Assembly: GCA_026396275.1 (NCBI GenBank)
Contig: JAPLXC010000005.1
Coordinates: 1,615 to 65,614, forward strand
Length of the DNA: 64,000 bases
Reading direction: 5' to 3'
DNA from: Candidatus Moraniibacteriota bacterium
GTDB taxonomy: Bacteria; Patescibacteriota; Minisyncoccia; Moranbacterales; JAPLXC01
Made by a program: the position numbers and the translations under genes. The notes under the pieces were generated by a model. That model was not told the DNA's origin. It saw only the letters and a list, made by a program, of their open reading frames with translations, and did no database searches. This document shows positions 2,695-62,180 of this stretch, piece by piece; within the stretch, counting starts at the first letter, position 1, and the number at the start of each line of letters is the position of its first letter.

Positions 2695-2728
2695 AAATTC
2701 ATCTTTTATTGCTAAATCTTGAACTTAA

Positions 2729-2834
2729 AAATCCAAATGTCAAAACCCAAATTATTTCAAATCAAGTCAAAATGCTTAAATTTTTAAAATTTAGTCATTT
2801 GAAATTGATTTGGCCATTTGAACTTTGAACTTTG
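2729..2834 (+). repeat. AT-rich miniature element with terminal inverted repeats AAAATCCAAAT / ATTTGGATTT (copy A)
   Basis: About 105 bp, homologous over its full length to 36186..36298 and to 56983..57113 (inverted). Confidence 0.55.
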
Positions 2835-2838
2835 GATT

Positions 2839-3396
2839 TCATACCGTCATTATCTCTCTTTCTTTCTTATCCCTTAACTCTTCAATCTGTTTATTATATT
2901 CATCAACAACTTTCTGCAATTTGTCTTTGCTCCGAAATTTGTCATCTTCGGAAATCTTTCCTTTCTTTTCCATATCCTGAATTATTTTCCAGACATCTTC
3001 CCGCCCGGTACGCACCGCGATTCTTGCCTCTTCGGCTTTCTGATTGAGTACTTTGACCAATTCTTTCCGGCGCTCTTCGGTGAGAGCCGGAATGGAAACA
3101 CGGACAACTTGACCATCATTAGCAGGATTTAGGCCTAAATCCGATCCTTTGATGGCTGATTCAATTCCAGTAAGAGCGTTTTTATCCCAGGGACTTATGA
3201 CAATGAGGCGCGGTTCGGGAACACTGATGGTGGCTAGTTGATTAAGAGGGGTCTTGGTTCCGTAATAGTCCACTAGAACATTTTCTACCAGGGCGGGGTT
3301 GGCCCTTCCGGTTCGTAGTTTTCCCATTTCTTCTTTAAAGCGTTCAATGGCTTTGTCCAGTTCTTCTTTTTTGTTTTCAATTAAGGATTCGTACAT
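2839..3396 (-). CDS. frr: ribosome recycling factor
   Basis: 185 aa. VDYYGTKTPLNQLA...RVSIPALTEERRKELVK are RRF hallmarks. Confidence 0.9.
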   Translation of the reverse strand: MYESLIENKKEELDKAIERFKEEMGKLRTGRANPALVENVLVDYYGTKTPLNQLATISVPEPRLIVISPWDKNALTGIESAIKGSDLGLNPANDGQVVRVSIPALTEERRKELVKVLNQKAEEARIAVRTGREDVWKIIQDMEKKGKISEDDKFRSKDKLQKVVDEYNKQIEELRDKKEREIMTV

Positions 3397-3411
3397 TATT
3401 TTTGTAGAGAA

Positions 3412-4464
3412 TTAGTTATCCTTTTTCAATCCCAGGTAAATAATCCCCGGGTTTAGTGGATCATATTGAATAACACTGGAAATTTTTGCTGTCTCAAGCT
3501 GTATCGTAAACCATTGTACTCCTCCGTCAATTGACTTATAGACCGCTTGGGCGGCGCTGTAGATCAGTTCCTGGGAATTTTGAGGATTGATCGTCATCGC
3601 CCTCACCGGAAAATTTTTAGAGCTCTCTAGCACGTTAAGCGGCGTCCAGGTCTCCCCAAAATCAGTACTTTTTGCAATTCCCTCATCCAAACCGGCATAC
3701 AAAGTTCCTGATCTTTGCGGATCAGAGGCAAGTGAAAAAACACGGTTGCTCCCGATTTCCGCGCTGCTTTGAAGATTTTTCTCAAGATTTTCAAAACTCT
3801 CCCCGCCATTTTTGGTTCTCAAAATCCCTTGTTCCAAAACTGAAAAGTACACTATATTGCCATCCGCCGAATCGAAGACACTCTGGGTAACTGCTCCTTG
3901 GACTTTAAAGAGATTAAGCCAGGTCTCGCCGCCGTTTTCTGTCTTAAATATCGCTCCCTCGCTGGTGCTGGCGTAAAGCACCTGGAAGTTTGCCGGATTA
4001 ATTGAGAGGGAGATAATAACAGTGCCGTCAGCCGGCTCTGTGTAGATTTCCTTCCAGTTCCCGCCGGCATCCTCGCTTTTGTAAATCTTTCCGCGCTTTT
4101 GCCATACCCCTAAAGCATAAAGAACTTGGGTATTGGATCGGTCGATTGCCAAACCATAAACCTTGCCCGGAGGAAAATTAATTTTTTCCCAATTTTCCCC
4201 TCCATTCTGGCTCAAATAAATTCCATTTTCTCTTGTCCCAATATAAACAATCTGGGAATTCGCGGGATCAATAGCGATTGATAATATTTCAACTGAAGAA
4301 ATGTTTTTTTCTTCACTGATTTTTACTTTCGGCTCCCATATTTTTCCGCCGTCAGTCGACTTTAAAATGCTCGCGCTGGATGGCGAACTATTTCCCGTCA
4401 AACTGCAACCAGAAAGAAAAAAGAGGGAGATGACTAAAAAAGAGAGTGCGATAAATTTTTTCAT
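3412..4464 (-). CDS. lipoprotein with BNR/Asp-box (SxDxGxTW) beta-propeller repeats
   Basis: MKKFIALSFLVISLFFLSGCS lipobox, then seven S-x-D-G-G-x-x-W repeats (STDGGKIW, SQNGGENW, SEDAGGNW, TENGGETW and others). Start taken at the internal Met. Confidence 0.6.
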   Translation of the reverse strand: MKKFIALSFLVISLFFLSGCSLTGNSSPSSASILKSTDGGKIWEPKVKISEEKNISSVEILSIAIDPANSQIVYIGTRENGIYLSQNGGENWEKINFPPGKVYGLAIDRSNTQVLYALGVWQKRGKIYKSEDAGGNWKEIYTEPADGTVIISLSINPANFQVLYASTSEGAIFKTENGGETWLNLFKVQGAVTQSVFDSADGNIVYFSVLEQGILRTKNGGESFENLEKNLQSSAEIGSNRVFSLASDPQRSGTLYAGLDEGIAKSTDFGETWTPLNVLESSKNFPVRAMTINPQNSQELIYSAAQAVYKSIDGGVQWFTIQLETAKISSVIQYDPLNPGIIYLGLKKDN

Positions 4465-7303: not shown

Positions 7304-7394
7304 ATAGACAGTTTACAAAATTACAAATCTATTGTGAATATTCAAATATATTTTTAAAATTCGTATATTCGTACAGATTCGTAATTCGTAGAGA

Positions 7395-8146: not shown

Positions 8147-8227
8147 GCAAATTGTCTACTAATTACGAATCTTGTACTAATGTACGAATTTTGCTTTTTA
8201 TTTTCTGTTATTCGTATATTCGTATGT

Positions 8228-8256
8228 GATTCGCCCGCCTGCCGGCGAGGCAGGTA
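8228..8256. repeat. GC-rich hairpin element CCCGCCTGCC-GGCGA-GGCAGGT
   Basis: A 22-nt core identical to 34262..34283. Stem CCTGCC/GGCAGG. Confidence 0.5.
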
Positions 8257-8281
8257 ATTCTCAGAGTTATTGCGCACAATA

Positions 8282-9274
8282 TTATTCTGATTGTTTTAAT
8301 GTAAGCCCGAACTCTCCGATCGATTTTTTAATTTCTTTAATCCCCTTCTCGCCCATTCCTTCAAGGTTTTTTAAATCCTCTTCCGTCATTTTAATAATAT
8401 TTTTCACCTTGGCGATTTTATTGGTTTCCAGTATGTTTAGTGTCCGGGTGGAAAGTCCTTTCAGTTCGGTAACTTTTATCCTAAGGGGATCATCCGGGAT
8501 GACTTGCTCGCCAGGCACCTCTTCGGTTTTTTCCTTGGCGGAAGAAACAGCTTCCAGCTTCCCAGCTGCCATTTCTGCTTCTTCTGCTGTCTCCACTTCA
8601 AGCAGCAGCGAAAACTGGTCAACCAAAATCTGAACGGCTTTCTGAAAGGCCTCTCGAGGAGTAATGCTTCCATCGGTGACAATCTCCAGCGTGATCTTGT
8701 TATAATCAGTTCTTTTTCCTACCCGCATATTCTCAACCTCGTAATTGACTCTTCTAACCGGTGTGTAGACGGTGTCAATGGCAATGGCGCCAATTTCTTT
8801 TTCTTTTCGCTCCTGCTGTTCAACCGGAACATAACCAATTCCTCCAGCTACTTCTAGTTCCATATCTATTTCTGTCTTTTTGTCGGTGACAGTAGCAATC
8901 AGCTGATCAGTATTAACAACCTCAATACCAGACGGGCATTTAATTTCACCGGCGGTGATTTTTCCTTCTCCTTTATGTTTCAGCACGACCTCCATTGGTT
9001 CATCGCCGTGCATCTTGAATCGAACCTTTTTGATATTAAGAATAATTTGTACCACATCTTCCATTATTCCCGGTATCGTGGAAAACTCGTGTGACACGCC
9101 TTTAATTTTTACCGATGTTACCGCCGCTCCGGAAAGAGATGAAAGCAATACTCTCCTAAGGGCATTCCCCAGCGTTGTTCCGTAGCCCGGATGGCAGTCC
9201 ATAATTTCAAATTTTCCGCTCCGTTCATCTATGGTAGTGTACTTCGGCTTTAGAGGAAGCGATATTGTTAGCAT
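8282..9274 (-). CDS. rpoA: DNA-directed RNA polymerase alpha subunit
   Basis: GTTLGNALRRVLLSS plus dimerisation and C-terminal domains. Start set at internal MLTISLPLKPKY by alignment to RpoA. Confidence 0.9.
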   Translation of the reverse strand: MLTISLPLKPKYTTIDERSGKFEIMDCHPGYGTTLGNALRRVLLSSLSGAAVTSVKIKGVSHEFSTIPGIMEDVVQIILNIKKVRFKMHGDEPMEVVLKHKGEGKITAGEIKCPSGIEVVNTDQLIATVTDKKTEIDMELEVAGGIGYVPVEQQERKEKEIGAIAIDTVYTPVRRVNYEVENMRVGKRTDYNKITLEIVTDGSITPREAFQKAVQILVDQFSLLLEVETAEEAEMAAGKLEAVSSAKEKTEEVPGEQVIPDDPLRIKVTELKGLSTRTLNILETNKIAKVKNIIKMTEEDLKNLEGMGEKGIKEIKKSIGEFGLTLKQSE

Positions 9275-9366: not shown

Positions 9367-9999
9367 TTATCTTGAATAATACTCAACAACTAATTGAGGA
9401 TCAATGTTCATTCCCACTTCTTCGCGCTTGGGGATCGCGCTGATTTTTCCTGTCAGGGTGGAAGAATCAAACTGAATCCAGGAAGGAAAGTCCTTCTTAT
9501 TTTTCAAAATTGGAAGCTGCATGATGAAATAGTTTTTATTCTTTTTTGACTCTGAGATTTCTACTTTATCGCCGACTTTAACTTTAAAAGAGGGAATGTT
9601 GACCTTTTTTCCATTTACTAAAAAAGATCCGTGGCGCACTAGTTGGCGCGCGAGCTGCCTAGAACTTGCAAAACCAAGCCGGTAAACTATGTTGTCCAAG
9701 CGCATTTCCAGCCGTTCAAGCAGTAAATCTCCCGTAATCCCGGGTTTATGCTTCACTTCATTAAAGTGCTTCCTGAACTGCCGTTCCATAATGCCATAGA
9801 CCCTTTTAATCTTTTGTTTCATCGCCAACTGCCTTCCATATTCGCTTAATCCCCGCGACTTTTTTTTACCGTGTGCTCCCGGCGGATATGGCTTTCTTAT
9901 CATGGCGCATTTTGGCGAATTGCAGCGATCACCTTTAAGAAAGAGCTTTTCACCGGCTCGGCGGCACATTTTGCATTTGGAATTAAGAATTCTTGCCAT
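9367..9999 (-). CDS. rpsD: 30S ribosomal protein S4
   Basis: MARILNSKCKMCRRAGEKLFLKGDRC zinc-ribbon N-terminus and an S4 domain. Confidence 0.9.
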   Translation of the reverse strand: MARILNSKCKMCRRAGEKLFLKGDRCNSPKCAMIRKPYPPGAHGKKKSRGLSEYGRQLAMKQKIKRVYGIMERQFRKHFNEVKHKPGITGDLLLERLEMRLDNIVYRLGFASSRQLARQLVRHGSFLVNGKKVNIPSFKVKVGDKVEISESKKNKNYFIMQLPILKNKKDFPSWIQFDSSTLTGKISAIPKREEVGMNIDPQLVVEYYSR

Positions 10000-10099
10000 G
10001 ATGCTAATTATGATTCGAATTATATCCGAATTTCAATCCAAATTTTTAATAAAAATCATTCGGATATTTATTCGAATTTAATTCGGATGCTTATTCGAA

Positions 10100-10546: not shown

Positions 10547-10618
10547 AAAGTTTCACTAATCACAAATTAAACACTTATGAGCAAATTAAAATTATTTATT
10601 CATACATTCGTACAAAAT

Positions 10619-10668
10619 TCGCCCGTCTGCCTCGATGGTCATCAAGGCATTTCGGGCAGGTATTTCGT
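10619..10668. repeat. GC-rich hairpin element, long-loop variant (CGCCCGTCTGCC...GGGCAGGTA)
   Basis: Flanks match the element at 8228; the loop differs. Confidence 0.4.
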
Positions 10669-10674
10669 AGAGAT

Positions 10675-11064: not shown

Positions 11065-11147
11065 GATACGAATTGTAATACGAATTATATTCGAATTATG
11101 GTCCGAATTCGTTTTTCATTCGGATTTAATTCGGATAATAATTCGTA

Positions 11148-11261
11148 TCACCCTTGGCGCTGCTTATGCTTGGGATTAGAACAAATCACGTAAATTTTTC
11201 CTTTACGCTTGACAATTTTGCATTTGGCGCAAAATCTTTTAACTGATGCCCTTACTTTCAT
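11148..11261 (-). CDS. rpmJ: 50S ribosomal protein L36
   Basis: Own translation gives [37 protein letters not shown] (37 aa). Absent from the track because it is under 60 aa. Confidence 0.85.
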
Positions 11262-11395
11262 AAAGTTAGCTACTAAATACTAATCTTTTACGAATATACC
11301 AATAAGTTTAGATTTTTTCCAAAAAATTCGTATATTAGTATGTGATTCACCACCGCCCTGGCGGGGTCCCGCTACAGCGGGATAATTAGTAGATA

Positions 11396-11611: not shown

Positions 11612-11849
11612 AGATACTAATTATGATCCGAATTACATTCGAATTATTATCCGAATTCGTATTTCATTTGGATTTAATTCGTATTATCAATTCGGATCAA
11701 TACAAAAATAGAGGAGCTTTTATCCTGCCAACATTGCTCGCCAGATGACGAGAGACAGGAATGTAAGCGTTTCTATCCTAATTCCTGAAGTCCTACAATT
11801 TGCCACCTCTATTTTCCGCGCCTTATTTAGTTTTTCAAATGTCGTGTTT

Positions 11850-13317: not shown

Positions 13318-13824
13318 TTATTCTCTCCTGGCCCGGTCTTTGCCTTTCGGTAGCCGGACCGCGCCGATTGCCTTCTTGGCTGATTTTCCGGTCTTATCTT
13401 CCTCTTCGTCGAAAAATTCTTGAGAGCCGATATTTTCCAGTCTTTCCCGCTTATCGACTCTTCTGACGGAAATTTCCTTCCCGCCGGTTAACTGCTTGCT
13501 GGCAGAAAGCAAAGTCAAATTCTCATCTTTCTCGCGAGCAGTCTCCAGTCCGTCTAAGTTCGAGCGAACCATTATTCCGACTTTGCGAGCCAGCGTCTCG
13601 CCGGCTTCATCTTGAGTGACAAAAACAATCTGCTTTTTTAACTTTTCTGCTTCCTTCTTAAGTATTTTTAAATTTACAACACTTTGCAAGACCATCGCTC
13701 GTTTGGGAACAACAAAAAAGTTTTCGCTCACCTTGGATTTTCTAAGGCGATCAACTAGGGAAGTAATTTCTTCATCGCCGCCGATGTATAATAACTGGTG
13801 CATAAATTTCCTTAATGTTGGCAA
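13318..13824 (-). CDS. hypothetical protein (168 aa)
   Basis: Track ORF tightly spaced with its neighbours. Confidence 0.4.
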   Translation of the reverse strand: MPTLRKFMHQLLYIGGDEEITSLVDRLRKSKVSENFFVVPKRAMVLQSVVNLKILKKEAEKLKKQIVFVTQDEAGETLARKVGIMVRSNLDGLETAREKDENLTLLSASKQLTGGKEISVRRVDKRERLENIGSQEFFDEEEDKTGKSAKKAIGAVRLPKGKDRARRE

Positions 13825-16162: not shown

Positions 16163-16186
16163 AAATTAAAAATCAAATATCAAAAA

Positions 16187-16382
16187 TCAAAATGTCAATG
16201 CAAAATGTAAAAATGGTTTTATTCTTTTTGATTTTTAATTTATCATTTTGCCTGCCCGAAATGCCCTCTATATTAAACTGACCAGTTTTGTTTGATTTCA
16301 TAAGAACGCAATTTTTCTAAATTATTTAAAGATTTCAAGGCAGGCGGGCATTTTGATTTTTGCATTTTGATTTCTTATGTTT
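16187..16382. repeat. AT-rich element bounded by inverted repeats CAAAAATCAAAATG(C/T)AAAA (family 2)
   Basis: Inverted 25-30-nt arms at 16187..16235 and 16335..16382. Homologous arms occur at 59779..59925 and 23470..23556. Confidence 0.45.
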
Positions 16383-16396
16383 GAAACTTTAATTGA

Positions 16397-19791: not shown

Positions 19792-19873
19792 GTCTATACC
19801 AAGTATATACCAAATTTATTTTAACAGCATCCGGATTGTAATTCGGATATAATTCGGATTTAAATTCGTATCA

Positions 19874-20971: not shown

Positions 20972-21055
20972 ATCCGAATTTTAATCCTAATTATATCCGA
21001 ATAATAATCCGAATTCACATAACAATTCGGATATAATTTGGATTTTAATTCGCAT

Positions 21056-23432: not shown

Positions 23433-23555
23433 TACTTTACTTTAGCTCAAAATTTAAAGCTTAAATCTCAAAACTACAGCGAAAAGCTAAAAAATATTTT
23501 ATTATTTTTGAGTTTTGAGTTGTGACTTTGCGCTTTGCATTTTGCGTTTTACGCT

Positions 23556-24192: not shown

Positions 24193-27100
24193 TTAATCCG
24201 TAGTTTTAACTATCCACCAGCTAAATTCTAATTCTTCATCAACTGTTTTTTCTACTTCAACTTTGAAACTTTCGCTTTCTTTTATTTTGGTAACAGCCAG
24301 GGGTTGTTTGGCTACTTTTTTAGCCGTGACAAAAATCTCACATTTATCCGTCACTGCCTTGGTTTTCACTGTCACGCTTTTCCCGTCGGATCCCGTCTCG
24401 TCGTCTTTGCCGTCTTCGTCTTCGTCTTTTTCCACGGGGAGGATTTTGGCAGTGCCAAGAGTTCTTTTTTCTTCATCAGAAACCTTGACGGTAAACGCTC
24501 CGGCTACTATTCCTTCCGCCTCTACCTTGCCCAAGACGCTGATGTCGCCGGGATTTTGCACCTGATCAATACCCAGAACCAGCTTAATGTAGTCAATATC
24601 ATTTTTATTGGCTTCCATCTGGGCGACATTCAGTTCCTGGTTAGTGAGCGCCTTCAGTTCGTCAATTTGGGCCTGGAGCGTAACCGTGAGATTTTCCAGA
24701 GCGGCAACCCGGCTTTCCAAGTTGCTGTTTTGGGCTTCCAAATCCACAACCTTATCTTGAACATTATTGATATTATCACTAACAATTGAGAGTTGTTCGT
24801 CCACCGAGGTCTGCAGTTCCGCCAGATTAGTGACGCTTTCGTCCGTCTTGAGAGCCAGTGTCTCCACATTAGTTGATATCCGCTGGTCTTCGGTTTGCAA
24901 TCCGCCGATTTGTGTCTGCTGCTCCTGCATAGACTTTACTATCAAGGGAGTCAGCTTGGAATAATCCACCTGCCAGTATTTGGTGTCGTTTTCGGGAATG
25001 GTGACGGCTTGAGGGTATACATCATATAACTCCTGGGCGATGACGCCGTAGACAATTTCTTTGGTTGGATCGGACTTGAAGTTGAACTGGCGGATTTGGA
25101 TATTCATCAAATTATTGATGCCGATGTTGGCCAGAGTGACGTTTTCCTTCAGCCGGACGTCTGAAGAAGTGTTGTAATAAGTCTGGGTGTTGTTGTAAGT
25201 GATGGATCCAACGGCGGTGCCGTCACCGTCGTTGAACTGGATCAAGGTGTTGGTTCCGGCGGGAGTGTCTTCACCGGCTTGGATGAGCAAACCGTAGCGG
25301 TCGGTGTTGTTGCCGTCATTGTAAAATTCGGCGGCGTAATCTGCGGAAGCGTTGTCATAAACATGAAGCGCCGCTCCAGGCCCCGTCGTCCCGATGCCGA
25401 CATTGCCGGCGAAATATGACTGGCCGCCGGCTGAATAAATCGCATAATTTATGGCGCTCCCCCTACTTTGGTTCTCCAAGTAAAAGCCGTAGTTGTTTGT
25501 TATTGGCCCGGCGCCTGTTGGATTGGGAATATATAGAGCATACCCATCTGTTATGGTTCCTGCTCCTTCATTATGAATAGCGGTATATGTACCATATGCA
25601 GCAGTTACGGCCCCGGTACTCATATTCCCGGCACGATTCCAACTACCGTATGCAGTTGTAATAGTACTGGATGACCAGTTATGAGATTTATTCCTTGCCC
25701 CATATGATGTGGTCACATTTCCTGCTCCTGCGTAACTATTGGCAGTATGAGTGCCACCTACTAAGTCAGTTACGGTTCCAGACCCATAGTGCAAAGCAGA
25801 GTGATCCGACCCTTCAAGGCGCGGGAAGTTCTGCGCATTCCCGCTCTGCGTTGCAACTTCAAAATTGGAACCATATGCTTCAGAGGAGGGTGCGCTGGAA
25901 GGGTTAAGCGTGAGTCTTAGATAATGGCCTATGACATAACTAGTGCTGAGACTCGTCAGTATATCTCGACTGTCAATTAACGTTAGCGATGATGCTCCAT
26001 CTATTGCTTTGTTTATGCCACTGTCGGAACCAATGGCCGCCCTTTGAGAGACGGTGAAATTCCCATTGACTTCAAGTTTTTCCACCGGACTCGTCGTCCC
26101 AATGCCGACATTGCCGCCCTCAAATATAGCCGAATAATTAGTTGTTCCTCCAGTGGCATTTACATAAAGTCCGCGGTTGACAGCCGAGGTTCCGTCCCAG
26201 GTTCCGGTTGATGTTACCGATAAGCCCGTTTTTGTTATCGAGGCGGTTGAAGATGTGGCCGTGTTGGTAAGAAGATTGCCTATGTAATCGGCGGTTTTAG
26301 ACCCGCTGGCTATGGTGTGTAAAATGGAAGTTGGTGAAGTCGTCCCGATGCCGACTTTACCACCGAAATAAGATGGATTCCCGTCTGCTGCATATAGCGA
26401 ATATCTGGCACCAGAACCAGAATTGGTGTCATTTTCAATATAAAGCGCGGCTGTGCCGTATGAAGGGGATGTATCATTAGTCAGAATAAACTCACCAGCA
26501 TAATTAACTGACGCGTTACTGCCAACAACACTAAGAGCTTGTCCTGGACTCGTCGTCCCAATCCCCACAAGGCCATTGGAATTAATCACCAATCTATCAT
26601 TTGTCCCCAGAGCCGTGGTGGAAATCTTGAATTTGTCCGAGTCGGAATCGTCCACACCCATAGTGAATTTTACGGAAGGGGTGGCACCGACGCGGAACTG
26701 GAGAGAGGGATCGTAGGTGGTATCAGAAAGATTAGTGAGAGTTAATACCGGATTGGCGTCAGTGTCTTGGATTTCAAGAAGAGAGGCCGGACTCGTCGTC
26801 CCAACGCCGACGTTGCCGGCGAAATAGGACTGGCCGCCAGCCGAATAAATGGCGTAGCTGGTGGTGCCAAAGGCCTGGTTCTCAAGATAAAGGCCGTAGT
26901 GAGTGCCAATCGAGCCATTAGAGTAAGGAGAACGAATATAAAGACCATAGTCAGTCGTGACTGAAGAACCAGCCCGGTAGGCGCCGCTTCTGATTCTGGC
27001 TCCGTAATTGTTGGTGACTGTGCCGTCAGTGGCGACATCAAGGTCAATGCCATAGTTGTTGGTAATAGAACCTAAATTTGAAGCGTTATAGATGCAGGAA

Positions 27101-31089: not shown

Positions 31090-31184
31090 AAATTAAACTA
31101 AAAAAACTGAGAAGCTGAAGAACAGAGAAACATTTTTAAGCTTCTTGGTTTCTCAGTTGCTTAGTTTTTTAGTTGCTTAGTTGC

Positions 31185-35774: not shown

Positions 35775-35882
35775 ATTCTTGTTTACGAATTACTAATTCC
35801 ATACGAATATACGAATATACGAATTACTTTTTGAATATTAGTATATTCGTAAAAGCGAAGCGCATTAGTAATTAGTAAATAC

Positions 35883-36134: not shown

Positions 36135-36185
36135 CTAAAACCTCCAATCTAGAAATTTCTAATTACCAACTTCTAATTTCCAATA

Positions 36186-36298
36186 AAAATCCAAATGTCA
36201 AAATCTAAATTGTTCCAAGTCAAGCCCAAAATCTAAATTTTTAAAAATTTAAACATTTGAAATTGATTTGAAATTTGAGCTTTGGAATTTGGATTTTT
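36186..36298 (+). repeat. AT-rich miniature element with TIRs AAAATCCAAAT / ATTTGGATTTT (copy B)
   Basis: Aligns end to end with 2729..2834. Confidence 0.55.
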
Positions 36299-40934: not shown

Positions 40935-40971
40935 TAATCTAGTCACTTTATAATAACCAAAATAAAAGTCA

Positions 40972-41000
40972 TATTACACTATCTGTCGGCCGACATAAGG
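40972..41000. promoter_or_regulatory. 28-bp palindromic operator-like site ACAC-N5-GTCGGCCGAC-N5-GTGT (copy 1)
   Basis: Imperfect palindrome. Two related copies sit upstream of the wHTH gene. Confidence 0.45.
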
Positions 41001-41052
41001 TGTCAAAAGATATTAAATATGCAAATCCATAACTTCCGAATTTATGTTCTGT

Positions 41053-41634
41053 TTAGATAATATTTTTATAAACTTTTTCTACAAGCAAATAATTGACATA
41101 ATTTCCTATTTTTCTTCTTTTTATTTCTTTTATCAAGTCCTCTGTTAAAGAATGCTTGCTTATAAAAACGCTCTCCTGTAATTTTCTGTAGTTTAGAAGA
41201 TATAATTCTTGCCTTAACCAGTTGCGTATTTTTCTTTTATCTTCAGGAATATCAAAAATGACTACTCTGAACTTATTGTCCCATTTTTTATCTAGGGTCT
41301 TTTTTCGATTTAAAACATATTTGGCCAGTATTTTCCCCATTTTTGTTAACACATACTTGTTCCCCCTTTTTTCCACGAAGCCCTGTTTTTGTAATCTTCG
41401 AATGCTCTGTCTTATTGTATTCTCTTTAAAACTGGTCTTTTTTGAAGAGGGTCCTGGCCAATCAAATGATGAGGCGGGAAGATCCGCATAAATTGATGGC
41501 GATAAGAAAGCATTAATAGTTAATTCTCCCATTTGGATTAAGGCAACAAATACCCAGGCCGAAGCATTGAGGGAATTTCTCACAACATTCCTGGTTATAG
41601 CTCTTACCAGTTTCAAGTTTTTCTTCTTTGTCAT
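41053..41634 (-). CDS. winged-helix DNA-binding protein fused to a Cas2-like (VapD/Cas2 fold) C-terminal domain; putative regulator
   Basis: N-terminal wHTH-like (...IRRLQKQGFVEKRGNKYVLTKMG...). C-terminal FRVVIFDIPEDKRKIRNWLRQELYLLNYRKLQESVF...GNYVNYLLVE follows the Cas2 pattern (YDV...RRR...YGxRVQxSVFE...R.YLL). Confidence 0.5.
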   Translation of the reverse strand: MTKKKNLKLVRAITRNVVRNSLNASAWVFVALIQMGELTINAFLSPSIYADLPASSFDWPGPSSKKTSFKENTIRQSIRRLQKQGFVEKRGNKYVLTKMGKILAKYVLNRKKTLDKKWDNKFRVVIFDIPEDKRKIRNWLRQELYLLNYRKLQESVFISKHSLTEDLIKEIKRRKIGNYVNYLLVEKVYKNII

Positions 41635-41679
41635 ATAACCATCTTTTAAAATTAATTCTATATTCCCGCTAGCTATATT

Positions 41680-41708: not shown

Positions 41709-41754
41709 ATATGACACACTATTTTAGTATTGCTTGTTAAATTAATATTAATTA

Positions 41755-41783: not shown

Positions 41784-41831
41784 TGTAGTATAATTTATAC
41801 TCTATTATTTCTGAACGCTATTTTGGAAAAT

Positions 41832-56786: not shown

Positions 56787-56982
56787 CACCAAGATTGTAA
56801 GTTCAGATCAAAATTTGAACTTCAAATTTATTTTAAGTAACTGCTAACTGCTAACTTGAAAAACGAGAAAGGTTTAATAGTTTATTAGTACTTCTTGGCT
56901 GAATCCCTCTCGGGACTTACACCTGAAGCCTATCAACCTCGTCTTCTTCGAGGAAACCATACCGCGCACAGCGCGGAAGTTC

Positions 56983-57113
56983 AAATTTCAAAGCTCAAAT
57001 TTTCCCGCCAAAGCGAGATCCCGCCGTGGCGGTGGCAAATCAATTTCAAATGGCTAAATTTCAAAAAAATTTTGTCATTTGGATTTTGGGCTTGATTTGT
57101 CATTTGGATTTTT
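56983..57113 (-). repeat. AT-rich TIR element (copy C) at the helix-98-equivalent variable site of 23S
   Basis: Its reverse complement aligns with copies A and B. Flanked by duplicated CGUGCGCAGCACG-like hairpins. Confidence 0.5.
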
Positions 57114-57162
57114 GATTTTGACATTCCGTGCTGCGCACGACAGTTGCCTAATCTTGGGGTGA

Positions 57163-57193
<31 letters not shown>

Positions 57194-57273
57194 TCGTCCG
57201 AACATAGCTACTCGGCGTTGCTCCTGGCGGAACAGCCGATACACCAGAGGTTCGTTCTTCTCGGTCCTCTCGT

Positions 57274-58042
57274 CACATATTCCCTTATTTCTAAGAGTGT
57301 AGACTATATCTTCATCCCCGATGGACATCGAGGAGCCGACGTGTTATAGCAACACATTTCCATATATTTTCCGTTGCTATCCTATCCCGCCTTGGCGGGA
57401 TAAAGTCGTTACGGGGTCAATCCTAAAATTTTTAGCAATTTTCTTTTGGTTCTTTTTTTCTTAGTAACATAATTTTCTTTCTGAATTTTCATCACGCAAT
57501 TAATAAGTTTAATGTAATCCTTCTTTTCAAGGTTCTTTTTACTAAGAATTTTTATAGCTTTTAATATTTCTTGGCACTGGATCTTTTTGAATTTAATAAA
57601 TGGCTTTAGTTTTTCGAGAATACTTTTTGCCTTATTATAGCCATTAATTCGTAGTTCGGTTATGCTATCATTTCTTCTGGAAATATAACCAATGCCGATT
57701 TTTTTCCTAATCCAGTACAAGGGTTTTTCGTGGCGCGAATCCTGATAAAAGCAAATAGTAACCATGAAGCGGCTTTTTCCATTGTCGCTTCGTTTTTTTA
57801 TTTGCAACATTAAGCTTCCATCGCCATCAAGAAAACCTGCAATATAAGCTAAATTAATTTTAGAACGACTTCCCACGGTATTATCTTAATTATTTATCCG
57901 GTCCTCAAGTAACTTTATCATATCACAAAATTCGCTGGACCGCAAATCATTTTGTGATCCCACAAACCGGAAAATAAATGAAGACTTCACCGTTATTAGT
58001 CGGATTTTCAATTCCGCTTGCGCGGAAAAGTAGCAATCTTCT
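57274..58042 (-). mobile_element. group-I-like intron in 23S rRNA at the sarcin-ricin loop (between E. coli U2656/A2657 equivalents), encodes a LAGLIDADG endonuclease
   Basis: Exon junction reconstructs CUCUAGU|ACGAGAGGACC. 5' exon ends in U and the intron ends in G. Shares blocks (AUCCGACUAAUAACGGUGAAG, AUACCGUGGGAAGUC) with the intron at 59118..59358. Confidence 0.7.
57409..57876 (-). CDS. LAGLIDADG-family homing endonuclease (intron-encoded)
   Basis: LAYIAGFLDGDGS motif near the N-terminus. 155 aa, single-motif type, inside intron A. Confidence 0.8.
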   Translation of the reverse strand: MGSRSKINLAYIAGFLDGDGSLMLQIKKRSDNGKSRFMVTICFYQDSRHEKPLYWIRKKIGIGYISRRNDSITELRINGYNKAKSILEKLKPFIKFKKIQCQEILKAIKILSKKNLEKKDYIKLINCVMKIQKENYVTKKKRTKRKLLKILGLTP

Positions 58043-58105
58043 TACTAGAGAAGACTCCCCTCAAGCAACAACGCCTACGGCAGATAGAGACCAACCTGTC
58101 TCACG

Positions 58106-58389
58106 CATATTTGTTCACTTATTACTAAGTGTATGGACTATAACTTAATCCTTTTTTATTTTGTACAAAATTAGGATTGCTAACATTTAGTCTCTACGGG
58201 TTTGTAATTATTTACAATTCCCTCGGTATTGTCCAAACATATTTTGGATTTTACCGAAATTAGTTAGCTTCTCTTTTAACATTACTGTTAAAAGCCGCCA
58301 TGAATGATGTCATTAAATATCCTCGGGTTCAAACAGTAAAATCTCCTTTAACTAAAAAGCTAATGAAGCTAATAGCTAAAAGCTGCTTT
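58106..58389 (-). mobile_element. group-I-like intron in 23S rRNA at the I-CreI-type site (E. coli ~2593; AACCGU|CGUGAGACAG)
   Basis: A 284-nt insertion in the invariant GUCGUGAGACAG segment. Intron ends in G. No ORF. Confidence 0.65.
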
Positions 58390-58453
58390 ACGGTTTGAAC
58401 CCAGCTCGCGTACCGCTTTAATTGGCGAACAGCCAAACCCTTGGGAGCTTCTC

Positions 58454-58493
<40 letters not shown>

Positions 58494-58720
58494 TCCTCCG
58501 TCGATATGGACTCTTGGGAGGAATAAGCCTGTTATCCCCGGGGTAACTTTTATCTGATGATCTTCCACCCTCCTATGAGGGATGGTCGGTTCACTAAATT
58601 CCACTTTCGTGACTGATTGACTTATGGGTCTTTCAGTAAAGCTGGCTTGTGCTTTTGCGCTACCGGCCCGATTTCCATCCGGACCTAGCCAACCTTAGTA
58701 AACGCCTCCGTTGCATTTTG

Positions 58721-58751
<31 letters not shown>

Positions 58752-59117
58752 AGGCACTGTTCCCAACCCGGTACCAATAACCAACAACTTACAACTCACA
58801 ACTAAAATAACATTAAAAGAAATGTTATCAGTTGTTTGTTATCAGTTAGTCATTAGTAACGGGTTAGGGTTAGAACTAAAACTTCAGCAGGGTGGTATTC
58901 CACTGTTGCCTCCATCCCGACCAGAATCGGGACTTCATCGGCTCCCACCTAAGCTCGGCAGCTAAAACTCTAATCCAATGCCAAGTTGTAGTAAAGCTCC
59001 ACGGGGTCTTTTCGTCTTGCCGTAGGTCGACGGCATCTTTACCGTCATTGCGATTTCACCGGGTCCTTCGTCGAGACAGTTACCAAGTCGTTACGCCTTT
59101 GATGCGGGTCAGAATTT

Positions 59118-59358
59118 CATTTTTGCTGTTTTGCTTTCGCAAACAATAGACTATATCTTCACCCCGATATTATATCGGGGGCCGACGTGTTACCCACAAT
59201 AATTGTGAGTCCAGATTAAATAAATAATCTGAGTCGTTACGGGGTCACTAGGACTTCCCACGGTATTACCATATCCTTCAAGGACTTAGGCTTCACCGTT
59301 ATTAGTCGGATTGCTCATGCCGCATTGCTGCGGCATTCAGGCAAATGTCTGACACTTT
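59118..59358 (-). mobile_element. group-I-like intron in 23S rRNA near E. coli position 1951 (CCUUGUCAGGU|AAAUUCUGACC)
   Basis: A 241-nt insertion. 5' exon ends in U and the intron ends in G. Homologous to intron A. No ORF. Confidence 0.65.
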
Positions 59359-59778
59359 ACCTGACAAGGAATTTCGCTACCTTAGGACGATTATAGTTAT
59401 CGCCGACGTTCACTGGCGCTTCGGGAACAAGCTTTCACCCGCTCCGTTAACGTTCCAGCACTGGTCAGGCGTCAGCCCCTATACTTCCCCTTGCGGGTTT
59501 GCAGAGACCTGTGTTTTTGGTAAACAGTCGCCTGGTAAACTTTCGCTGCGTCCCGCCCTTTTGGACTAAAATTTTAAGGCTTCATGAATTTTATTTTCAC
59601 AAGCTTAAAATTCATTCCCAAAAGGGCGGGAAAGACATTTCGCGAACTTACGTCTAGTTTTTTTGCCGAGTTCCTTAACGAAGGTTCTCCCGTTCACCTT
59701 GGGCTACTCGCCCAGTCCACCTGTGTCGGTTTTCGGTACGGACGCTGTTAGATTCGCTCGTATCGCGCTTCGCGCGAT

Positions 59779-59925
59779 ACATCGCTAAATTCAAAAATCA
59801 AAGTGCAAAATGCAAAATTAAGGAACTCGCTACACTCGTAATTTTTTATATTTTAAATATAAAATAATCAGTCGCGAAACGACACCAAAATTTTGATTTT
59901 TGATTTTTGCATTTTGAATTTGAGT
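59779..59925. repeat. AT-rich family-2 inverted-repeat element inside a 23S variable region (domain III)
   Basis: Arms CAAAAATCAAAGTGCAAAATGCAAAA / TTTTGATTTTTGATTTTTGCATTTTG, like 16187..16382. Confidence 0.45.
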
Positions 59926-61085
59926 GAGTATCACACGAAAGGTGATACGAACGACATAGAGGTTTTTCCTGGTAGCGCGCTCGTTCAGCTTCCCCTGATA
60001 AAATCAGAGTTCGCCGCGTTTCTTGAAGTAATGCCCTGCGGATTTGCCTGCAGAGCCCTCTTAAAACGCGGACGTTAATCCAATAAATCGCCTGAATTAC
60101 TGCACTACGTCACCTCATTTATAAACTAATAGCGGTGCCGGAATATTAACCGGCTGTCCATCGACTACGCCTTTCGGCCTCGCCTTAGGACCGACTAACC
60201 CTGGGATGATCGTCATTGCCCAGGAAACCTTGGACTTGCGGTGTGCCGGGTTTTCACCGGCATTGTGGTTACTCATGCCAACATTCTCACTTCCATAAAC
60301 TCCAGTCCGACTCACATCGAACCTTTGCTGCTTATGGAACGCTCTCCTACCGCCAATGCAAAGCATTGGCCCATATCTTCGGTACCATGTTTAGCCCCGT
60401 TACATTTTCGGCGCGAATCTTCTGGTCTAGTGAGCTGTTACGCACTCTTTAAAGGGTGGCTGCCTCTAAGCCAACCTCCTAGATGTATAAGAAAATTCAC
60501 TTCCTTTCCCACTTAACATGGATTTAGGGACCTTAGATGATGATTTGGGCTGTTTCCCTTTTGAGATCCGACCTTAGCGCCGGATTTCTGACTGCCTCGG
60601 TAAATATCGCAAGAATTCGGAGTTTGGTTGAGAACCCTGCGGCGAACCGCGAGTCCTCATTCAGTAGCTCTACCTCTTGGATACAATGTCGAGACGCTAG
60701 CCCTCAAGCTATTTCGGAGAGAACCAGCTATTGCCAAGCTCGGTTGGAATTTCTCCTCTACACACAAGTCATCTCCCAGTTTTGCACGGCTGGTGAGTGC
60801 GGGCCTCCCCCCGATTTTACTCGGGGTTCACCCTGCTCATGTGTAGCTCGCCTGGCTTCGGGTCTAGTCCGCGCGACACGCCTTGTACCACAATGGTACA
60901 AGGCAAAGCCCATTTAAGGCTCGCTTTCACTGTGCATATCCTCCAAAGGAGTTTATACAAGTCACGCAAAACTAACTCGTTGGCTCGTTCTACAAAAAGC
61001 ACGCAGTCACCCCGACTTGCGTCGGGGCTCCTACTCTTCGTTTGCATATGGTTTCAGGTTCTATTTCATCTCCCTCACCGGGATA

Positions 61086-61122
<37 letters not shown>

Positions 61123-62180
61123 ATCTCGCACAATATTTAGCCTTGGAAGATTAGTGCTCCCAGATTCAGACGGGATTTCTCCGGTCCCGCCCTACTTGAG
61201 AATAATAACCGTAAAGATGTTTTCTTTTTATGTACAGGGCTATTACCTTCTATGGCCGCTCTTTCCAGAGACGTTCTATTAAAAAAACATTTTATAACTC
61301 TACCTCCGCAGAATGTAACACGTTGAGAAAAATCTCAAGATGTTACAAACTCGGAGCGTTACCATCCCGCAACGCCGCAATCACCAAAGTAATTACGGTT
61401 TTGGCTTTTCCCCTTTCGCTCGCCACTACTTGGGGAATCACTATTGTTTTCTTTTCCTCCTGGTACTAAGATGTTTCAATTCCCAGGGTGCGCCATACGC
61501 ACCTATGAATTCAGCGCGTATTAATCCCGCCGAGGCGGGATTGGATTGCTCCATTCGGATATCCCCGGATCAAAGCTTGCTTGGCAGCTCCCCGAGGCTT
61601 ATCGCAGCCTGCTACGTCCTTCATCGCTTGTACGAGTCAAGGCATCCACCATATGCATGAGTAAACCTTTCTCTTTGTTAGCAGTTAGCAATTACTTAAC
61701 TTTAGCTAACTTTTTCTTAATTTACGACCTACTTAAAACTTACCACTTTTCACTGACTCATCTTTCCGCAAAACGCGAACAAGCCAATGACAGTTGGTTA
61801 AGACCTATTCAGTTTTCAAGGAGCGATTACTGCGGAAATAAATTAGAACAATATTATTCAAACTTATTTCAACACTAATCATCAACCTGTCACCCACTCA
61901 CCAGTTTCGAAAGCATTCTGGTGATTTCCTAAAACTGGATACACAGTCGCGCCTTCGGCTTGATCTGAAAAAATATTAAATATTGATAAAAACTGGTGAG
62001 GGATTTGTTTCTCTTATCAAAATCAAAGATTTTGAAGAGAAACAAAAAACCGCTTGTTCGGCGGGCTGTCTCCTCAAGAACAACTTAAAAATAAAGAATT
62101 TACCCGCTTCTTTTTCCAATATGCTTTTTTCGAATTGTCTTTACTATATGTTTGAAAAAATAATTAGTTAGTCAGTTTTC

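What the first reader, a model, noticed from the sequence alone, without database searches (positions are those of the whole stretch)
2729..2834. MITE-like AT-rich element with 11-bp terminal inverted repeats, present in intergenic spacers and inside the 23S gene
Three copies align end to end and share the termini AAAAATCCAAATG...ATTTGGATTTT and an internal CATTTGAAATTGATTTG core. They are 2729..2834 (rseP promoter region), 36186..36298 (between HIT and rpsU) and 56983..57113 (inverted, at the helix-98-equivalent variable site of the 23S 3' domain). An element that lands both in promoters and in a tolerated rRNA expansion site looks like a small non-autonomous mobile element, or an RNase III-excised intervening sequence family.
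Basis: seen in the sequence. Interest (0 to 1): 0.6.

Follow-up and report, generated by a model that had tools for sequence, protein, structure and literature searches.

The report
Palindromic repeat family invading 23S rRNA
A small non-coding, hairpin-forming AT-rich repeat sits in two gene-to-gene spacers and at the tip of a surface helix (H98) of the 23S rRNA gene of an uncultured Moranbacteria (CPR) bacterium. Relatives show such repeats being gained and lost at the same sites, which ties rRNA "intervening sequences" to a family of dispersed intergenic repeats.

Summary
The three copies are related far beyond AT-rich chance: A-B z=23 and A/B-C z≈11 against shuffles, and a reversed-profile decoy gave 0 hits against 28. 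Each copy is a whole-length imperfect palindrome of about 110-150 nt whose arms are built from ~7-nt TCAAA/TTTGA words.

A fills the frr→rseP spacer and B fills the HIT→S21-like spacer. C is the distal part of a 174-nt insertion that replaces the loop of 23S helix 98. It sits inside a GC-rich clamp stem.

The source is a Candidatus Moranbacteria MAG. About half of its larger spacers hold similar "word palindromes" from several families.

In relatives the frr→rseP spacer is empty (3 or 10 nt), holds the same family, or holds a different family. A related 23S (L050) carries the same clamp in H25, H45 (89% identical paralogues with long AT-rich tips) and H98 (short tip). H25 and H45 are the classical sites of RNase III-excised intervening sequences.

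My best reading is an insertional, non-autonomous palindromic repeat family whose rRNA copy is an IVS-type insertion. No target-site duplication, sharp ends or transposase were found. Excision from the rRNA is inferred, not shown.

The parts
2727..2839 (.). Copy A. A whole-length imperfect palindrome (43-bp unbranched hairpin) filling the spacer between the frr stop (2839) and the rseP start (2694), both on the - strand. It begins 0 nt after the stop codon.
36185..36298 (.). Copy B. The same family, 82% identical to A. A 53-bp hairpin in the spacer between the HIT stop (36305) and the S21-like ORF start (36134), both on the - strand.
56980..57125 (-). Copy C. The AT-rich distal palindrome of the 23S H98 insertion, inverted relative to A and B. 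It is homologous to A/B over about 90 nt (73%, E~1e-10).
57126..57143 (-). 5' arm (RNA sense) of the GC-rich clamp stem that extends H98 and carries copy C: CUGUCGUGCGCAGCACGG.
56961..56979 (-). 3' arm (RNA sense) of the clamp: CUUCCGCGCUGUGCGCGGU. It pairs with 57126-57143. One pair is C-G here and U-A in the orthologous H98 clamp of L050.
57004..57035 (-). GC-rich double-hairpin branch inside the 3' arm of copy C. A similar module (74% over 54 nt) sits in an intergenic element of another word family at 11334-11387.
56864..61672 (-). 23S rRNA gene hosting copy C, with three group I introns and several other non-intron insertions.
59785..59930 (-). Second AT-rich palindromic insertion in the 23S, between E. 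coli ~1400 and 1600. It belongs to the TTTTGATTTTTGCATTTTGA word family, which is shared with the intergenic spacer 16163-16396. Its core, TTACGAGTGTAGCGAGT, recurs in the L001 intergenic stretch 3057-3452.
58771..58859 (-). Third AT-rich word-palindrome insertion in the 23S, at E. coli ~2210.
11334..11387 (.). GC double-hairpin module related to the one in copy C. It is embedded in an intergenic TACGAAT-family element in the IF1→S13 spacer.

Best explanation
A, B and C belong to one family of short (about 110-150 nt), non-coding, AT-rich elements. Each is an imperfect palindrome from end to end, with arms made of roughly 7-nt TCAAA/TTTGA-type words. The family is one of several sister "word-palindrome" families that occupy gene boundaries in this Candidatus Moranbacteria genome and in other Patescibacteria.

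They behave as insertional, non-autonomous repeats. They appear, disappear and are swapped for other families at orthologous stop-to-start spacers, in the 23S-5S spacer, and at the tips of rRNA hairpins.

Copy C is an intervening-sequence (IVS) type insertion. An older GC-rich clamp stem extends 23S helix 98, a surface helix that many CPR bacteria lack. The AT-rich palindrome forms the distal part of that stem.

Once transcribed, each copy should fold into a duplex of about 45-55 bp with bulges. I infer that this duplex is a substrate for RNase III. In the 23S precursor, cleavage would excise the distal hairpin and leave a nicked but functional 23S. In polycistronic mRNAs it would cut or stabilise the message between cistrons.

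**Shown**
- Family relationship.
- Palindromic anatomy.
- Exact positions.
- Gain, loss and turnover in relatives.
- Paralogous clamp-bearing copies at H25, H45 and H98 in a relative.

**Inferred**
- The mode of movement. It is probably aimed at hairpins or spacers and leaves no target duplication; the enzyme is unknown.
- RNase III processing.
- Excision from mature rRNA.
For: **Family is real**
- blastn, shuffle and decoy controls.

**Whole-length hairpins**
- Fold z-scores of -4.1 to -4.7.
- Word period of about 7 nt.

**Site in the 23S**
- A 174-nt insert sits in the H98 loop.

**The relative L050**
- Its 23S is 81-98% identical to the window's in conserved blocks.
- It has the same clamp, GTGCGYAGCRCGGAA...UUCCGYGCURUGCGCGG, at H25, H45 and H98.
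- Its H25 and H45 copies are 89% identical over 125 nt, so they are paralogues.
- Its H98 copy keeps the clamp and only a ~32-nt tip.
- One clamp pair is C-G in the window, U-A in L050 H98 and U-G in L050 H25/H45. This is read directly from the sequences.
- The AT-rich part of its IVSs matches the L001 frr-rseP intergenic element (71% over 130 nt, E 7e-15).

**Orthologous frr→rseP spacer**

| Locus | Spacer length | Content |
|---|---|---|
| window | 144 nt | AAATCC family |
| L001 | 150 nt | same family |
| L142/L143 | 94 nt | TACGAAT family |
| L140 | 10 nt | empty |
| L144/L145 | 3 nt | empty |

**Wider gain and loss**
- The same patchiness appears at nine further orthologous boundaries.
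- L066 and L103 have about 98-99% identical rRNA flanks. The 23S-5S spacer holds a family member in one and a GC hairpin in the other.
- More rRNA examples: L112 23S and the 16S genes of L140 and L142.

**Shared descent rather than RNA-level selection**
- A and B fold better on the - strand, while the inverted copy C folds better on the + strand. The asymmetry is therefore inherited with the element and is not set by the direction of transcription.

**Literature**
- Classical IVSs replace the loops of H9, H25 and H45, are cut by RNase III, and are of unknown origin (PMC4990558).
- Short non-intron insertions at IVS sites are noted in CPR 23S genes and are "probably" IVSs (PMC11270868).
- H98 is often missing in CPR (PMC9297842).
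Against: - No target-site duplications, and no sharply conserved termini across members.
- No transposase or RAYT-like gene among the window ORFs I read or scanned.
- The source genome outside the window could not be reached, so its genome-wide copy number is unknown.
- A vs B shows no compensatory pair changes, and RNAalifold finds no shared register among members. There is therefore no direct evidence that the hairpin of this family is under selection.
- Across 18 palindromes in the window, the sense strand does not fold better than the antisense strand.
- The limited word vocabulary could inflate similarity between distant genomes.
- The closest relatives share only 60-67% RseP identity. 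"Empty" sites could therefore be deletions rather than never-occupied sites.
- Excision from the rRNA was not tested. C might be kept as an expansion segment.
Confidence: 0.6

Rival explanations
1. Classical MITE. A deletion derivative of an IS element, moved in trans by a transposase that recognises the terminal inverted repeats and makes target-site duplications.
For: - Small, non-coding and multi-copy.
- 12-13-bp perfect terminal inverted repeats in B and near-perfect ones in A.
- Presence/absence at orthologous sites.
Against: - No TSD at A, B, C or nine other members.
- Ends differ between members.
- The complementarity runs through the whole element rather than being terminal.
- No transposase in the 64-kb window or in the roughly 1 Mb of fetched loci that I inspected.
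- At rRNA sites and in L066/L103 the event looks like replacement of a hairpin tip, not a simple insertion.
Confidence: 0.15
2. Palindromes generated in place. Spacers and hairpin tips grow by slippage of ~7-8-nt words and by template switching. Similarity between loci comes from a shared word vocabulary or from gene conversion, not from movement of a defined element.
For: - Arms are degenerate tandem words.
- Hairpin registers differ between members.
- Ends are fuzzy.
- Many sister families have different words.
- A known analogue, the LIMP palindromes of an algal mitochondrion, is built of unit repeats (PMC4524435).
Against: - A and B align colinearly over 112 nt at 82%, including the non-repetitive loop region.
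- The L050 H25 and H45 copies are 89% identical and include a GC clamp that is not word-like.
- The same GC double-hairpin module occurs in C and at 11334-11387.
- These features need copying from one locus to another.
Confidence: 0.15
3. Conserved functional gene-boundary hairpins, such as unusual intrinsic terminators or obligatory mRNA processing sites. These would be vertically inherited, and the 23S copy would be an unrelated expansion segment of similar composition.
For: - Elements start a median 5.5 nt after the stop codon and end 12.5 nt before the next start.
- The polarity is an A-rich 5' arm and a U-rich 3' arm on either strand.
- L001 has a same-family element at the orthologous frr-rseP spacer.
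Against: - The same boundary is 3-10 nt long in two relatives and holds another family in a third.
- There is no GC stem plus T-run terminator pattern and no promoter pattern.
- There is no sense-strand folding advantage.
- C is specifically related to A and B (z≈11) and not to the other AT-rich palindromes.
Confidence: 0.07
4. Chance resemblance of low-complexity AT-rich DNA.
For: - GC content is only 21-25%.
- The word vocabulary is restricted.
Against: Shuffle z-scores of 11-23, an empirical null from 16 other AT-rich palindromes, and a reversed-profile decoy with 0 hits.
Confidence: 0.01

Closest known systems
23S rRNA intervening sequences (IVS) of Salmonella, Yersinia, Campylobacter, Leptospira, Coxiella and alpha-proteobacteria (PMC4990558, PMC2801512)
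   Same: - It replaces the loop of a peripheral 23S hairpin with a long extended stem-loop formed by complementary ends.
- It is AT-richer than the host rRNA.
- Its distribution among relatives and among helices is sporadic.
- A relative carries copies at H25 and H45, the classical sites.
   Different: - The site here is H98, which PMC4990558 does not list among the common IVS sites (helices 9, 25 and 45).
- There is no ORF.
- The distal part belongs to a repeat family that also occupies ordinary intergenic spacers. As far as I know and as far as my searches reached, this has not been described for classical IVSs.
- Excision was not tested.
Short non-intron insertions in CPR rRNA genes (Tsurumaki et al. 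2024, PMC11270868)
   Same: - Same clade.
- Same class: under 200-250 nt, no ORF, no group I or II intron signature.
- Those authors suggest that the ones at sites 23IS2 and 23IS4 are IVSs.
   Different: - That survey did not describe their palindromic word structure, the shared GC clamp, or their kinship with intergenic repeats. The words "palindrom" and "repeat" have no occurrences in its main text.
- The frequent-site positions given in the part of the text I read reach 2657. I did not see Fig. S1, so whether H98 is among the numbered sites is unchecked.
Bacterial palindromic MITE-like repeats transcribed within operons: Correia/NEMIS (Neisseria), ERIC/IRU and YPAL (enterobacteria, Yersinia), and REPINs (Pseudomonas). 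This comparison rests on my own knowledge.
   Same: - Whole-length imperfect palindromes of about 100-170 bp.
- They sit in intergenic, co-transcribed positions and fold into long RNA hairpins.
- Correia element RNA is cut by RNase III.
- Many copies, with filled and empty sites.
   Different: - Correia elements have 26-bp terminal repeats and a TA duplication.
- REPINs have a conserved GTAG-type REP core and a RAYT partner.
- None of these marks is present here.
- Those families are not known as rRNA insertions.
Organellar palindromic mobile elements: double-hairpin elements of Allomyces mtDNA, GC clusters of yeast mtDNA (both from my own knowledge), and LIMP palindromes of Lobosphaera mtDNA (PMC4524435)
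   Same: - Short palindromes whose arms are built of repeated units.
- They spread through intergenic regions and, for the double-hairpin elements and GC clusters, into variable regions of rRNA genes.
- LIMPs coincide with sites of low transcript coverage.
   Different: - Different sequences and different hosts (organelles).
- No kinship was tested.
Rickettsia palindromic elements (RPE), from my own knowledge
   Same: Palindromic repeats in a reduced genome that are tolerated inside functional genes, including a structural RNA (tmRNA).
   Different: RPEs mostly insert in frame into protein-coding genes. No coding insertion was seen here.
H98 expansion segment ES39 of eukaryotes and Asgard archaea, from my own knowledge
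   Same: The same helix is the growth point, and it is surface-exposed and tolerant of insertions.
   Different: ES39 is retained in the mature rRNA and is not a dispersed repeat. Whether C is retained is unknown.

Membership tests
MITE | Small (under ~500 bp) and non-coding | tested here: met
   The elements are 110-150 nt and are full of stop codons in all frames.
MITE | Defined terminal inverted repeats conserved among copies | tested here: inconclusive
   A and B share AAAAATCCAAAT / ATTTGGATTT(TT) ends. In C and in members from other genomes the outer words differ. Complementarity spans the whole element.
MITE | Target-site duplication flanking each copy | tested here: not met
   No direct repeats flank A, B, C or nine other members. 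No close filled/empty strain pair was available for the window's own copies.
MITE | Multiple dispersed copies in one genome | tested here: met
   There are 3 copies in 64 kb. There are 2-3 hits per 6-8 kb in L005, L006 and L013. The genome-wide count for the source could not be obtained.
MITE | A cognate autonomous IS or transposase with matching ends | not testable with these tools
   None was seen in the window ORFs. The rest of the MAG is not in the searchable collections.
23S rRNA intervening sequence (IVS) | Lies inside the 23S gene and replaces the terminal loop of a peripheral helix | tested here: met
   A 174-nt insert sits in the H98 hairpin loop. L050 has copies at the H25 and H45 loops.
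23S rRNA intervening sequence (IVS) | Complementary ends form a long stem that extends the host helix | tested here: met
   A clamp of 14-16 bp plus an AU-rich stem. The MFE is -70.3 kcal/mol with z -4.4. One clamp pair changes in a compensatory way relative to L050.
23S rRNA intervening sequence (IVS) | Sporadic distribution among relatives, operons or helices | tested here: met
   The window has it only at H98. L050 has it at H25, H45 and H98 with different tips. Nearly all of the other 23S fragments with the same flanking sequence have a standard or absent H98.
23S rRNA intervening sequence (IVS) | Excised by RNase III without religation, giving a fragmented 23S | not testable with these tools
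   This needs RNA data or an in vitro cleavage assay.
REP/REPIN (RAYT-mobilised) | Conserved REP core with a GTAG-type 5' motif, arranged as inverted doublets, plus a RAYT gene | tested here: not met
   There is no GC-rich REP core or GTAG motif in A or B, and no Y1-transposase-like ORF was recognised in the window. The whole genome was not available.
Group I intron | Matches the catalytic core covariance model | tested here: not met
   Rfam reports group I introns at 59128-59368, at 58115-58316 and weakly at 57281-57408, but nothing at copy C.
TIGR array (Tas-associated) | Tandem ~36-nt units with box C/D-like motifs next to a Nop-domain Tas gene | tested here: not met
   These are single dispersed palindromes, not tandem units. 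No such gene was recognised by eye among the translations of the window's larger ORFs; only 13 of them were scanned against Pfam. The features of the family are taken from PMC12045711.

The most novel reading that the evidence does not exclude
Bacterial rRNA intervening sequences originate from, and keep exchanging sequence with, a cross-phylum superfamily of AT-rich "word palindromes". These spread without a conventional transposase by replacing the tips of existing hairpins: rRNA helix loops, 23S-5S spacer hairpins and gene-end hairpins. The GC clamp is the old landing stem and the AT-rich distal part is the turnover cassette. Members with the same words occur in Patescibacteria, in a Thermodesulfovibrionia contig (L008) and in an rRNA operon with a standard H98 whose taxon I did not establish (L066).
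Probability: 0.25. Interest if true: 0.8.

Novelty: new variant of a known kind. Interest (0 to 1): 0.6.

Why it matters
The origin of rRNA intervening sequences has been unclear since 1990, and a "remnant of transposition" was only a guess (PMC4990558). In this window, one repeat family is caught both in ordinary gene spacers and as the distal part of an IVS-type insertion. In a relative, paralogous copies with the same basal stem sit at H25, H45 and H98.

That makes the idea that IVSs are dispersed palindromic repeats which landed in tolerant rRNA loops directly testable. Tests could use complete CPR genomes, strain-resolved metagenomes and metatranscriptomes.

It also shows that a streamlined genome of about 1 Mb can carry a heavy load of such repeats. 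About half of the spacers of 65 nt or more in this window hold one. This matters for CPR genome annotation, for operon and terminator prediction, and for rRNA-based surveys.

Tried and rejected
1. **Reaching the rest of the source MAG.**
   - Exact-protein look-ups for RRF, HIT and RseP found nothing on record.
   - The genome-contig scan returned 16 loci, none from the source.

2. **Sense vs antisense folding test for RNA-level selection (G-U vs A-C).** There was no bias across 18 palindromes.

3. **Covariation.** RNAalifold on 7 members gave no consensus structure, because the registers slip. A vs B shows 0 double compensatory changes.

4. **Promoter or terminator reading.** No sigma-70 or GC-stem/T-run pattern lies in or next to A or B beyond shuffle expectation.

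5. **TIGR-Tas arrays.** This was a lead from the literature search. I rejected it because the architecture is different.

6. **Rfam.** No family matches the elements. The only overlap is a sub-threshold snoU19 hit at E 0.71.

7. **Other collections.** Viral contigs, plasmids and phages gave no match.

8. **Search for TSDs.** None were found by inspecting 30-nt flanks of 12 members.

9. **The -35-like (TTGACA) word idea.** The promoter scan did not support it.

10. **The 7-nt TGA-word idea.** A 7-nt period would place stop codons in all three frames. This is speculation and I did not pursue it.

11. **Brown et al. 2015.** The paper is not held in the library.
Full report
**1. The observation**

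The three stretches are present as described.
- A MAFFT alignment of the three has 70% mean column identity and an invariant block, CATTTGAAATTGATTTG.
- In a self-BLAST of the window, A hits B at 81-82% over 106-112 nt (E 2e-22 to 7e-25). Both hit C at 73% over 90 nt (E ~1e-10 to 4e-11). Nothing else in 64 kb comes close.
- In a shuffle control, A-B scores 64 against a shuffle mean of 13.6 and maximum of 22. A-C and B-C both score 34 (z≈11). Sixteen other AT-rich palindromes from the same window score at most 23 against A, B or C.
- A profile of the three finds 28 hits at E<0.01 in the ~1 Mb of sequence I collected. The same profile reversed finds none.

**2. Anatomy**

- Each copy is an imperfect palindrome over its whole length, not only at its ends.
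- As RNA, A and B fold into single unbranched hairpins of 43 and 53 bp, with z -4.1 to -4.7 against dinucleotide shuffles on either strand.
- The arms are degenerate tandem words with a period of about 7: TTTGAAC x2.6 in A, AAATTTG x7 in B, and TTCAAAT and ATTTTG in C. The 5' arm reads TCAAA-like words and the 3' arm reads TTTGA-like words on both strands.
- A vs B shows 31 unchanged pairs, 5 one-sided changes that keep pairing, 4 that break it, and no double compensatory change. The two copies look like decaying duplicates rather than a structure under visible selection.
- A and B fold about 5 kcal/mol better on the - strand. C, which is inverted, folds about 10 kcal/mol better on the + strand. 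The asymmetry travels with the element, which argues for common descent and not for selection by the direction of transcription.

**3. Context of A and B**

- The window comes from a MAG named Candidatus Moranbacteria bacterium. The RseP protein is 100% identical to an NCBI record on a 78,347-nt contig, and the next relatives share only 60-67% identity.
- A fills the 144-nt spacer between the stop of frr (RRF, Pfam E 4e-64) and the start of rseP (Peptidase_M50, E 7e-56). Both genes are on the - strand.
- B fills the spacer between HIT (E 4e-27) and a small basic ORF that is only weakly S21-like.
- Both hairpins begin 0 nt after the upstream stop codon and end 35-44 nt before the next start.
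- Neither region has a sigma-70-like promoter or a GC-stem/T-run terminator beyond shuffle expectation. "Promoter region" is not supported.

**4. A genome full of word palindromes**

Of 32 spacers of 65 nt or more in the window, about 15 contain a long AT-rich hairpin built of short words, and these fall into several families.

| Word family | Positions in the window |
|---|---|
| ATTCGAATT / ATCCGAATT | 10000, 11065, 11613, 19828, 20972 |
| TACGAATATACGAAT | 7304, 8147, 10598, 11249, 35775 |
| TTTTGATTTTTGCATTTTGA | 16163-16396, 23433 |
| TTAGTTGC | 31090, 55513 |
| Singleton | 47351-47448 |

Some carry GC-rich hairpins. One of these, at 11334-11387, resembles the GC module inside C (74% over 54 nt).

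Across 22 such spacers in the window and in relatives, the hairpin starts a median 5.5 nt after the stop and ends 12.5 nt before the next start. They fill spacers that are otherwise only a few nucleotides long.

**5. Gain, loss and turnover in relatives**

I fetched the rseP neighbourhood from four relatives.

The orthologous frr→rseP spacer differs between them:

| Locus | Spacer length | Content |
|---|---|---|
| window | 144 nt | AAATCC family |
| L001 | 150 nt | palindrome matching the A/B/C profile end to end (E 8.5e-5, 4e-4 against the larger set) |
| L142/L143 | 94 nt | palindrome of the TACGAAT family |
| L140 | 10 nt | empty |
| L144/L145 | 3 nt | empty |

The same patchiness holds at nine further orthologous boundaries:

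| Boundary | Window | Relatives |
|---|---|---|
| S4→rpoA | 11 nt | ~100-nt hairpins in three relatives |
| rpoA→L17 | 135 nt | 10 nt in L140 |
| L17→L13 | 14 nt | 157 nt in L001; 2-5 nt elsewhere |
| BNR→frr | 15 nt | 127 nt, with a 37-bp hairpin, in L140 |

The elements are therefore not required features of these boundaries. They are inserted, lost and replaced.

**6. The family outside this genome**

An exact-pattern scan of one genome per species (TTTARNCATTTGAAATTGATTTG) returned 16 loci.
- Three are coding-sequence coincidences.
- About ten are spacer-filling AT-rich palindromes in Saccharibacteria, Nealsonbacteria, Moraniibacteriota, Paceibacterota and unnamed Patescibacteria MAGs.
- One lies on a contig labelled Thermodesulfovibrionia. 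Its neighbours are two threonine synthases and a phosphoglycerate mutase.
- Full-length profile matches include L005 (E 6e-16, the closest to C), L004, L008, L018 and L006.
- No flanking direct repeats are seen, and the outer words differ from member to member.

Because the word vocabulary is small, I treat similarity between phyla as suggestive of shared origin or transfer, not as proof.

**7. The 23S copy**

- The 23S gene runs from 56864 to 61672 on the - strand.
- Alignment to E. coli and Rfam show three group I introns. They lie at E. coli 1952, at 2593, and at ~2630-2657. The last contains a LAGLIDADG ORF.
- There are also non-intron insertions at ~268-304, ~1400-1600, ~1679-1770, ~2210 and H98.
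- cmscan places a 174-nt insert (56964-57137) in the 7-nt H98 hairpin.
- In the fold, a GC-rich clamp (57126-57143 pairing with 56961-56979) extends H98. It carries the AU-rich palindrome with a GC double-hairpin branch. The MFE is -70.3 kcal/mol, z -4.4.
- Two further insertions in the same gene (59785-59930 and 58771-58859) are also AT-rich word palindromes. The first shares words with the intergenic element at 16163-16396 and a core with an intergenic stretch of L001.

**8. The key comparison**

I scanned metagenome contigs for the 23S sequence just 5' of H98.
- Of 120 fragments, almost all have a standard H98, with about 51 nt to the next conserved block, or none at all (~33 nt).
- L050 is a real relative, 81-98% identical in conserved blocks. 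It has the same clamp at H98 but only a ~32-nt tip.
- Its clamp motif GTGCGYAGCRCGGAA occurs three times in that 23S and in no other fetched locus. By alignment to E. coli, the other two sites are the loops of H25 and H45.
- Those two copies carry AT-rich word palindromes of about 150 nt, one with a GC hairpin branch. They are 89% identical to each other over 125 nt.
- The clamp shows one pair that is C-G in the window, U-A in L050 H98 and U-G in L050 H25/H45, read from the sequences.
- The AT-rich part of the L050 insertions matches the intergenic frr-rseP element of L001 (71% over 130 nt, E 7e-15).

Further cases:
- L112 has a clamp, an AT palindrome and a GC double hairpin inside its 23S at 1230-1470.
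- The 16S genes of L140 and L142 carry AT-word palindromes with GC clamps.
- L066 carries a family member in its 23S-5S spacer. L103 has about 98-99% identical flanking rRNA but a GC hairpin in that place.

**9. Interpretation**

H25 and H45 are, together with H9, the classical sites of bacterial 23S intervening sequences. Such sequences replace a small loop with a long stem-loop, are cut out by RNase III without religation, are sporadically distributed, and are of unclear origin (PMC4990558). For CPR, Tsurumaki et al. noted many short non-intron insertions at these sites and called them probable IVSs (PMC11270868). The same group found H98 often missing in CPR, so it is dispensable and lies on the surface (PMC9297842).

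Copy C therefore has the anatomy and the relatives of an IVS, at an unusual helix. What the window adds is that the distal part of this insertion belongs to the same repeat family as two ordinary intergenic elements, and that the same link holds in relatives.

I conclude that these are insertional, non-autonomous palindromic repeats that are tolerated wherever a long hairpin does no harm: after stop codons, in rRNA spacers and at rRNA hairpin tips. In all of these settings the transcript is a long imperfect duplex, the natural substrate of RNase III. That step, and excision from the 23S, are inferences.

How the elements move is unknown. The absence of target duplications and the hairpin-for-hairpin swap in L066/L103 point away from a cut-and-paste transposase. 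They point toward recombination or template switching at hairpins, but this is speculation.

**10. Comparison and novelty**

- The element works like an IVS in the rRNA.
- In spacers it works like Correia, ERIC or REPIN-type palindromic repeats.
- It recalls organellar palindromic elements that invade both spacers and rRNA variable regions.
- It fails the MITE test on target duplications, and cannot be tested for a partner transposase.
- It fails the REP/RAYT, group I intron and TIGR tests.
- It meets three of the four IVS criteria. The fourth, excision, is untestable here.

Literature searches found no description of palindromic intergenic repeats in CPR, or of IVSs that belong to a dispersed repeat family. 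The library is limited, so this is absence of evidence only. I rate the finding as a new variant of a known kind.

**11. Limits**

- The relatives are distant, so empty sites may be deletions.
- Similarity between distant genomes may be inflated by the small word vocabulary.
- No RNA data were available.

Noticed in passing
window 57281-58060, 58115-58316, 59128-59368: The 23S gene carries three group I introns, at E. coli ~2630-2657, 2593 and 1952. The first holds a single-domain LAGLIDADG ORF (57409-57876, Pfam E 2.7e-9). The relative L050 lacks the 2593 and 2630-2657 introns but has other large insertions.
   Followed up: partly
window 7304-7394, 8147-8281, 10000-10099, 10547-10674, 11065-11395, 11612-11705, 16163-16396, 19828-19873, 20972-21055, 23433-23555, 31090-31184, 35775-35882, 47351-47448, 55513-55598: About half of the larger intergenic spacers hold long AT-rich palindromes built of 7-11-nt words. 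They fall into at least four other families (ATTCGAATT, TACGAATATACGAAT, TTTTGATTTTTGCATTTTGA, TTAGTTGC). Several carry GC-rich hairpins at one side.
   Followed up: partly
window 59785-59930 and L001 3200-3330: A 23S insertion between E. coli ~1400 and 1600 has AT-rich arms around a core, UUUGGUGUC...GAC...UUACGAGUGUAGCGAGU. The same core lies in L001 3057-3452, downstream of the called rpoA, where the gene calls look broken.
   Followed up: partly
window 58771-58859 and 59560-59640: There are two more hairpin insertions in the 23S, at E. coli ~2210 and ~1679-1770. The first is an ACTAAC/GTTAGT word palindrome. The second has a GC clamp (CCCGCCCUUUUGG...CCAAAAGGGCGGG) around an AU-rich tip.
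   Followed up: no
L050 (reverse complement) 8603-8820, 9424-9643, 13472-13550: A related 23S from a JGI metagenome carries three insertions with one shared GC clamp, at H25, H45 and H98. The H25 and H45 copies are 89% identical.
   Followed up: yes
L066 215-335 versus L103 1170-1245: Two rRNA operons with about 98-99% identical 23S 3' ends and 5S genes differ by a swapped cassette in the 23S-5S spacer. One has a TCAAA/TTTGA word palindrome and the other has a GC-rich hairpin. The host has a standard H98; its taxon was not established.
   Followed up: partly
L140 20188-20350; L142 17995-18117: The 16S rRNA genes of two Moranbacteria-like relatives contain AT-rich word palindromes enclosed by GC clamps. 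The phenomenon is therefore not limited to the 23S.
   Followed up: no
window 40971-41010, 41675-41714, 41754-41793: Three copies of a 40-nt motif (ATATTACACTATCT..GGCCG..AAGGTGTCA) flank an ORF (41053-41634) with a PaaX central / Cas2-like domain and a winged helix. They may be operator sites.
   Followed up: no
window 50604-50661: Two abutting 29-nt inverted-repeat arms (86% complementary): TGTCATGCTGAACTTGTTTCAGCATCTAA / TTAGATCCCGAAACAAGTTCGGGATGACA. They lie at the junction between the metG-like ORF and the tatD-like ORF.
   Followed up: no
window ~49440-49500: Downstream of tRNA-Leu (49289-49372) lies a stretch with a tRNA-like T-arm (GGTTCGACTCCGATC). ARAGORN and Rfam do not call it. 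It may be a degenerate tRNA copy.
   Followed up: no
window 24193-28344: A 1383-aa ORF with internal DNA repeats of about 80 nt (25379, 26333, 26789 and others). It is probably a repetitive surface protein.
   Followed up: no
L008 6305-6412: A full-length member of the A/B/C family fills the spacer just upstream of thrC. The contig is labelled Thermodesulfovibrionia and has non-CPR-like gene content (two threonine synthases, iPGM).
   Followed up: partly
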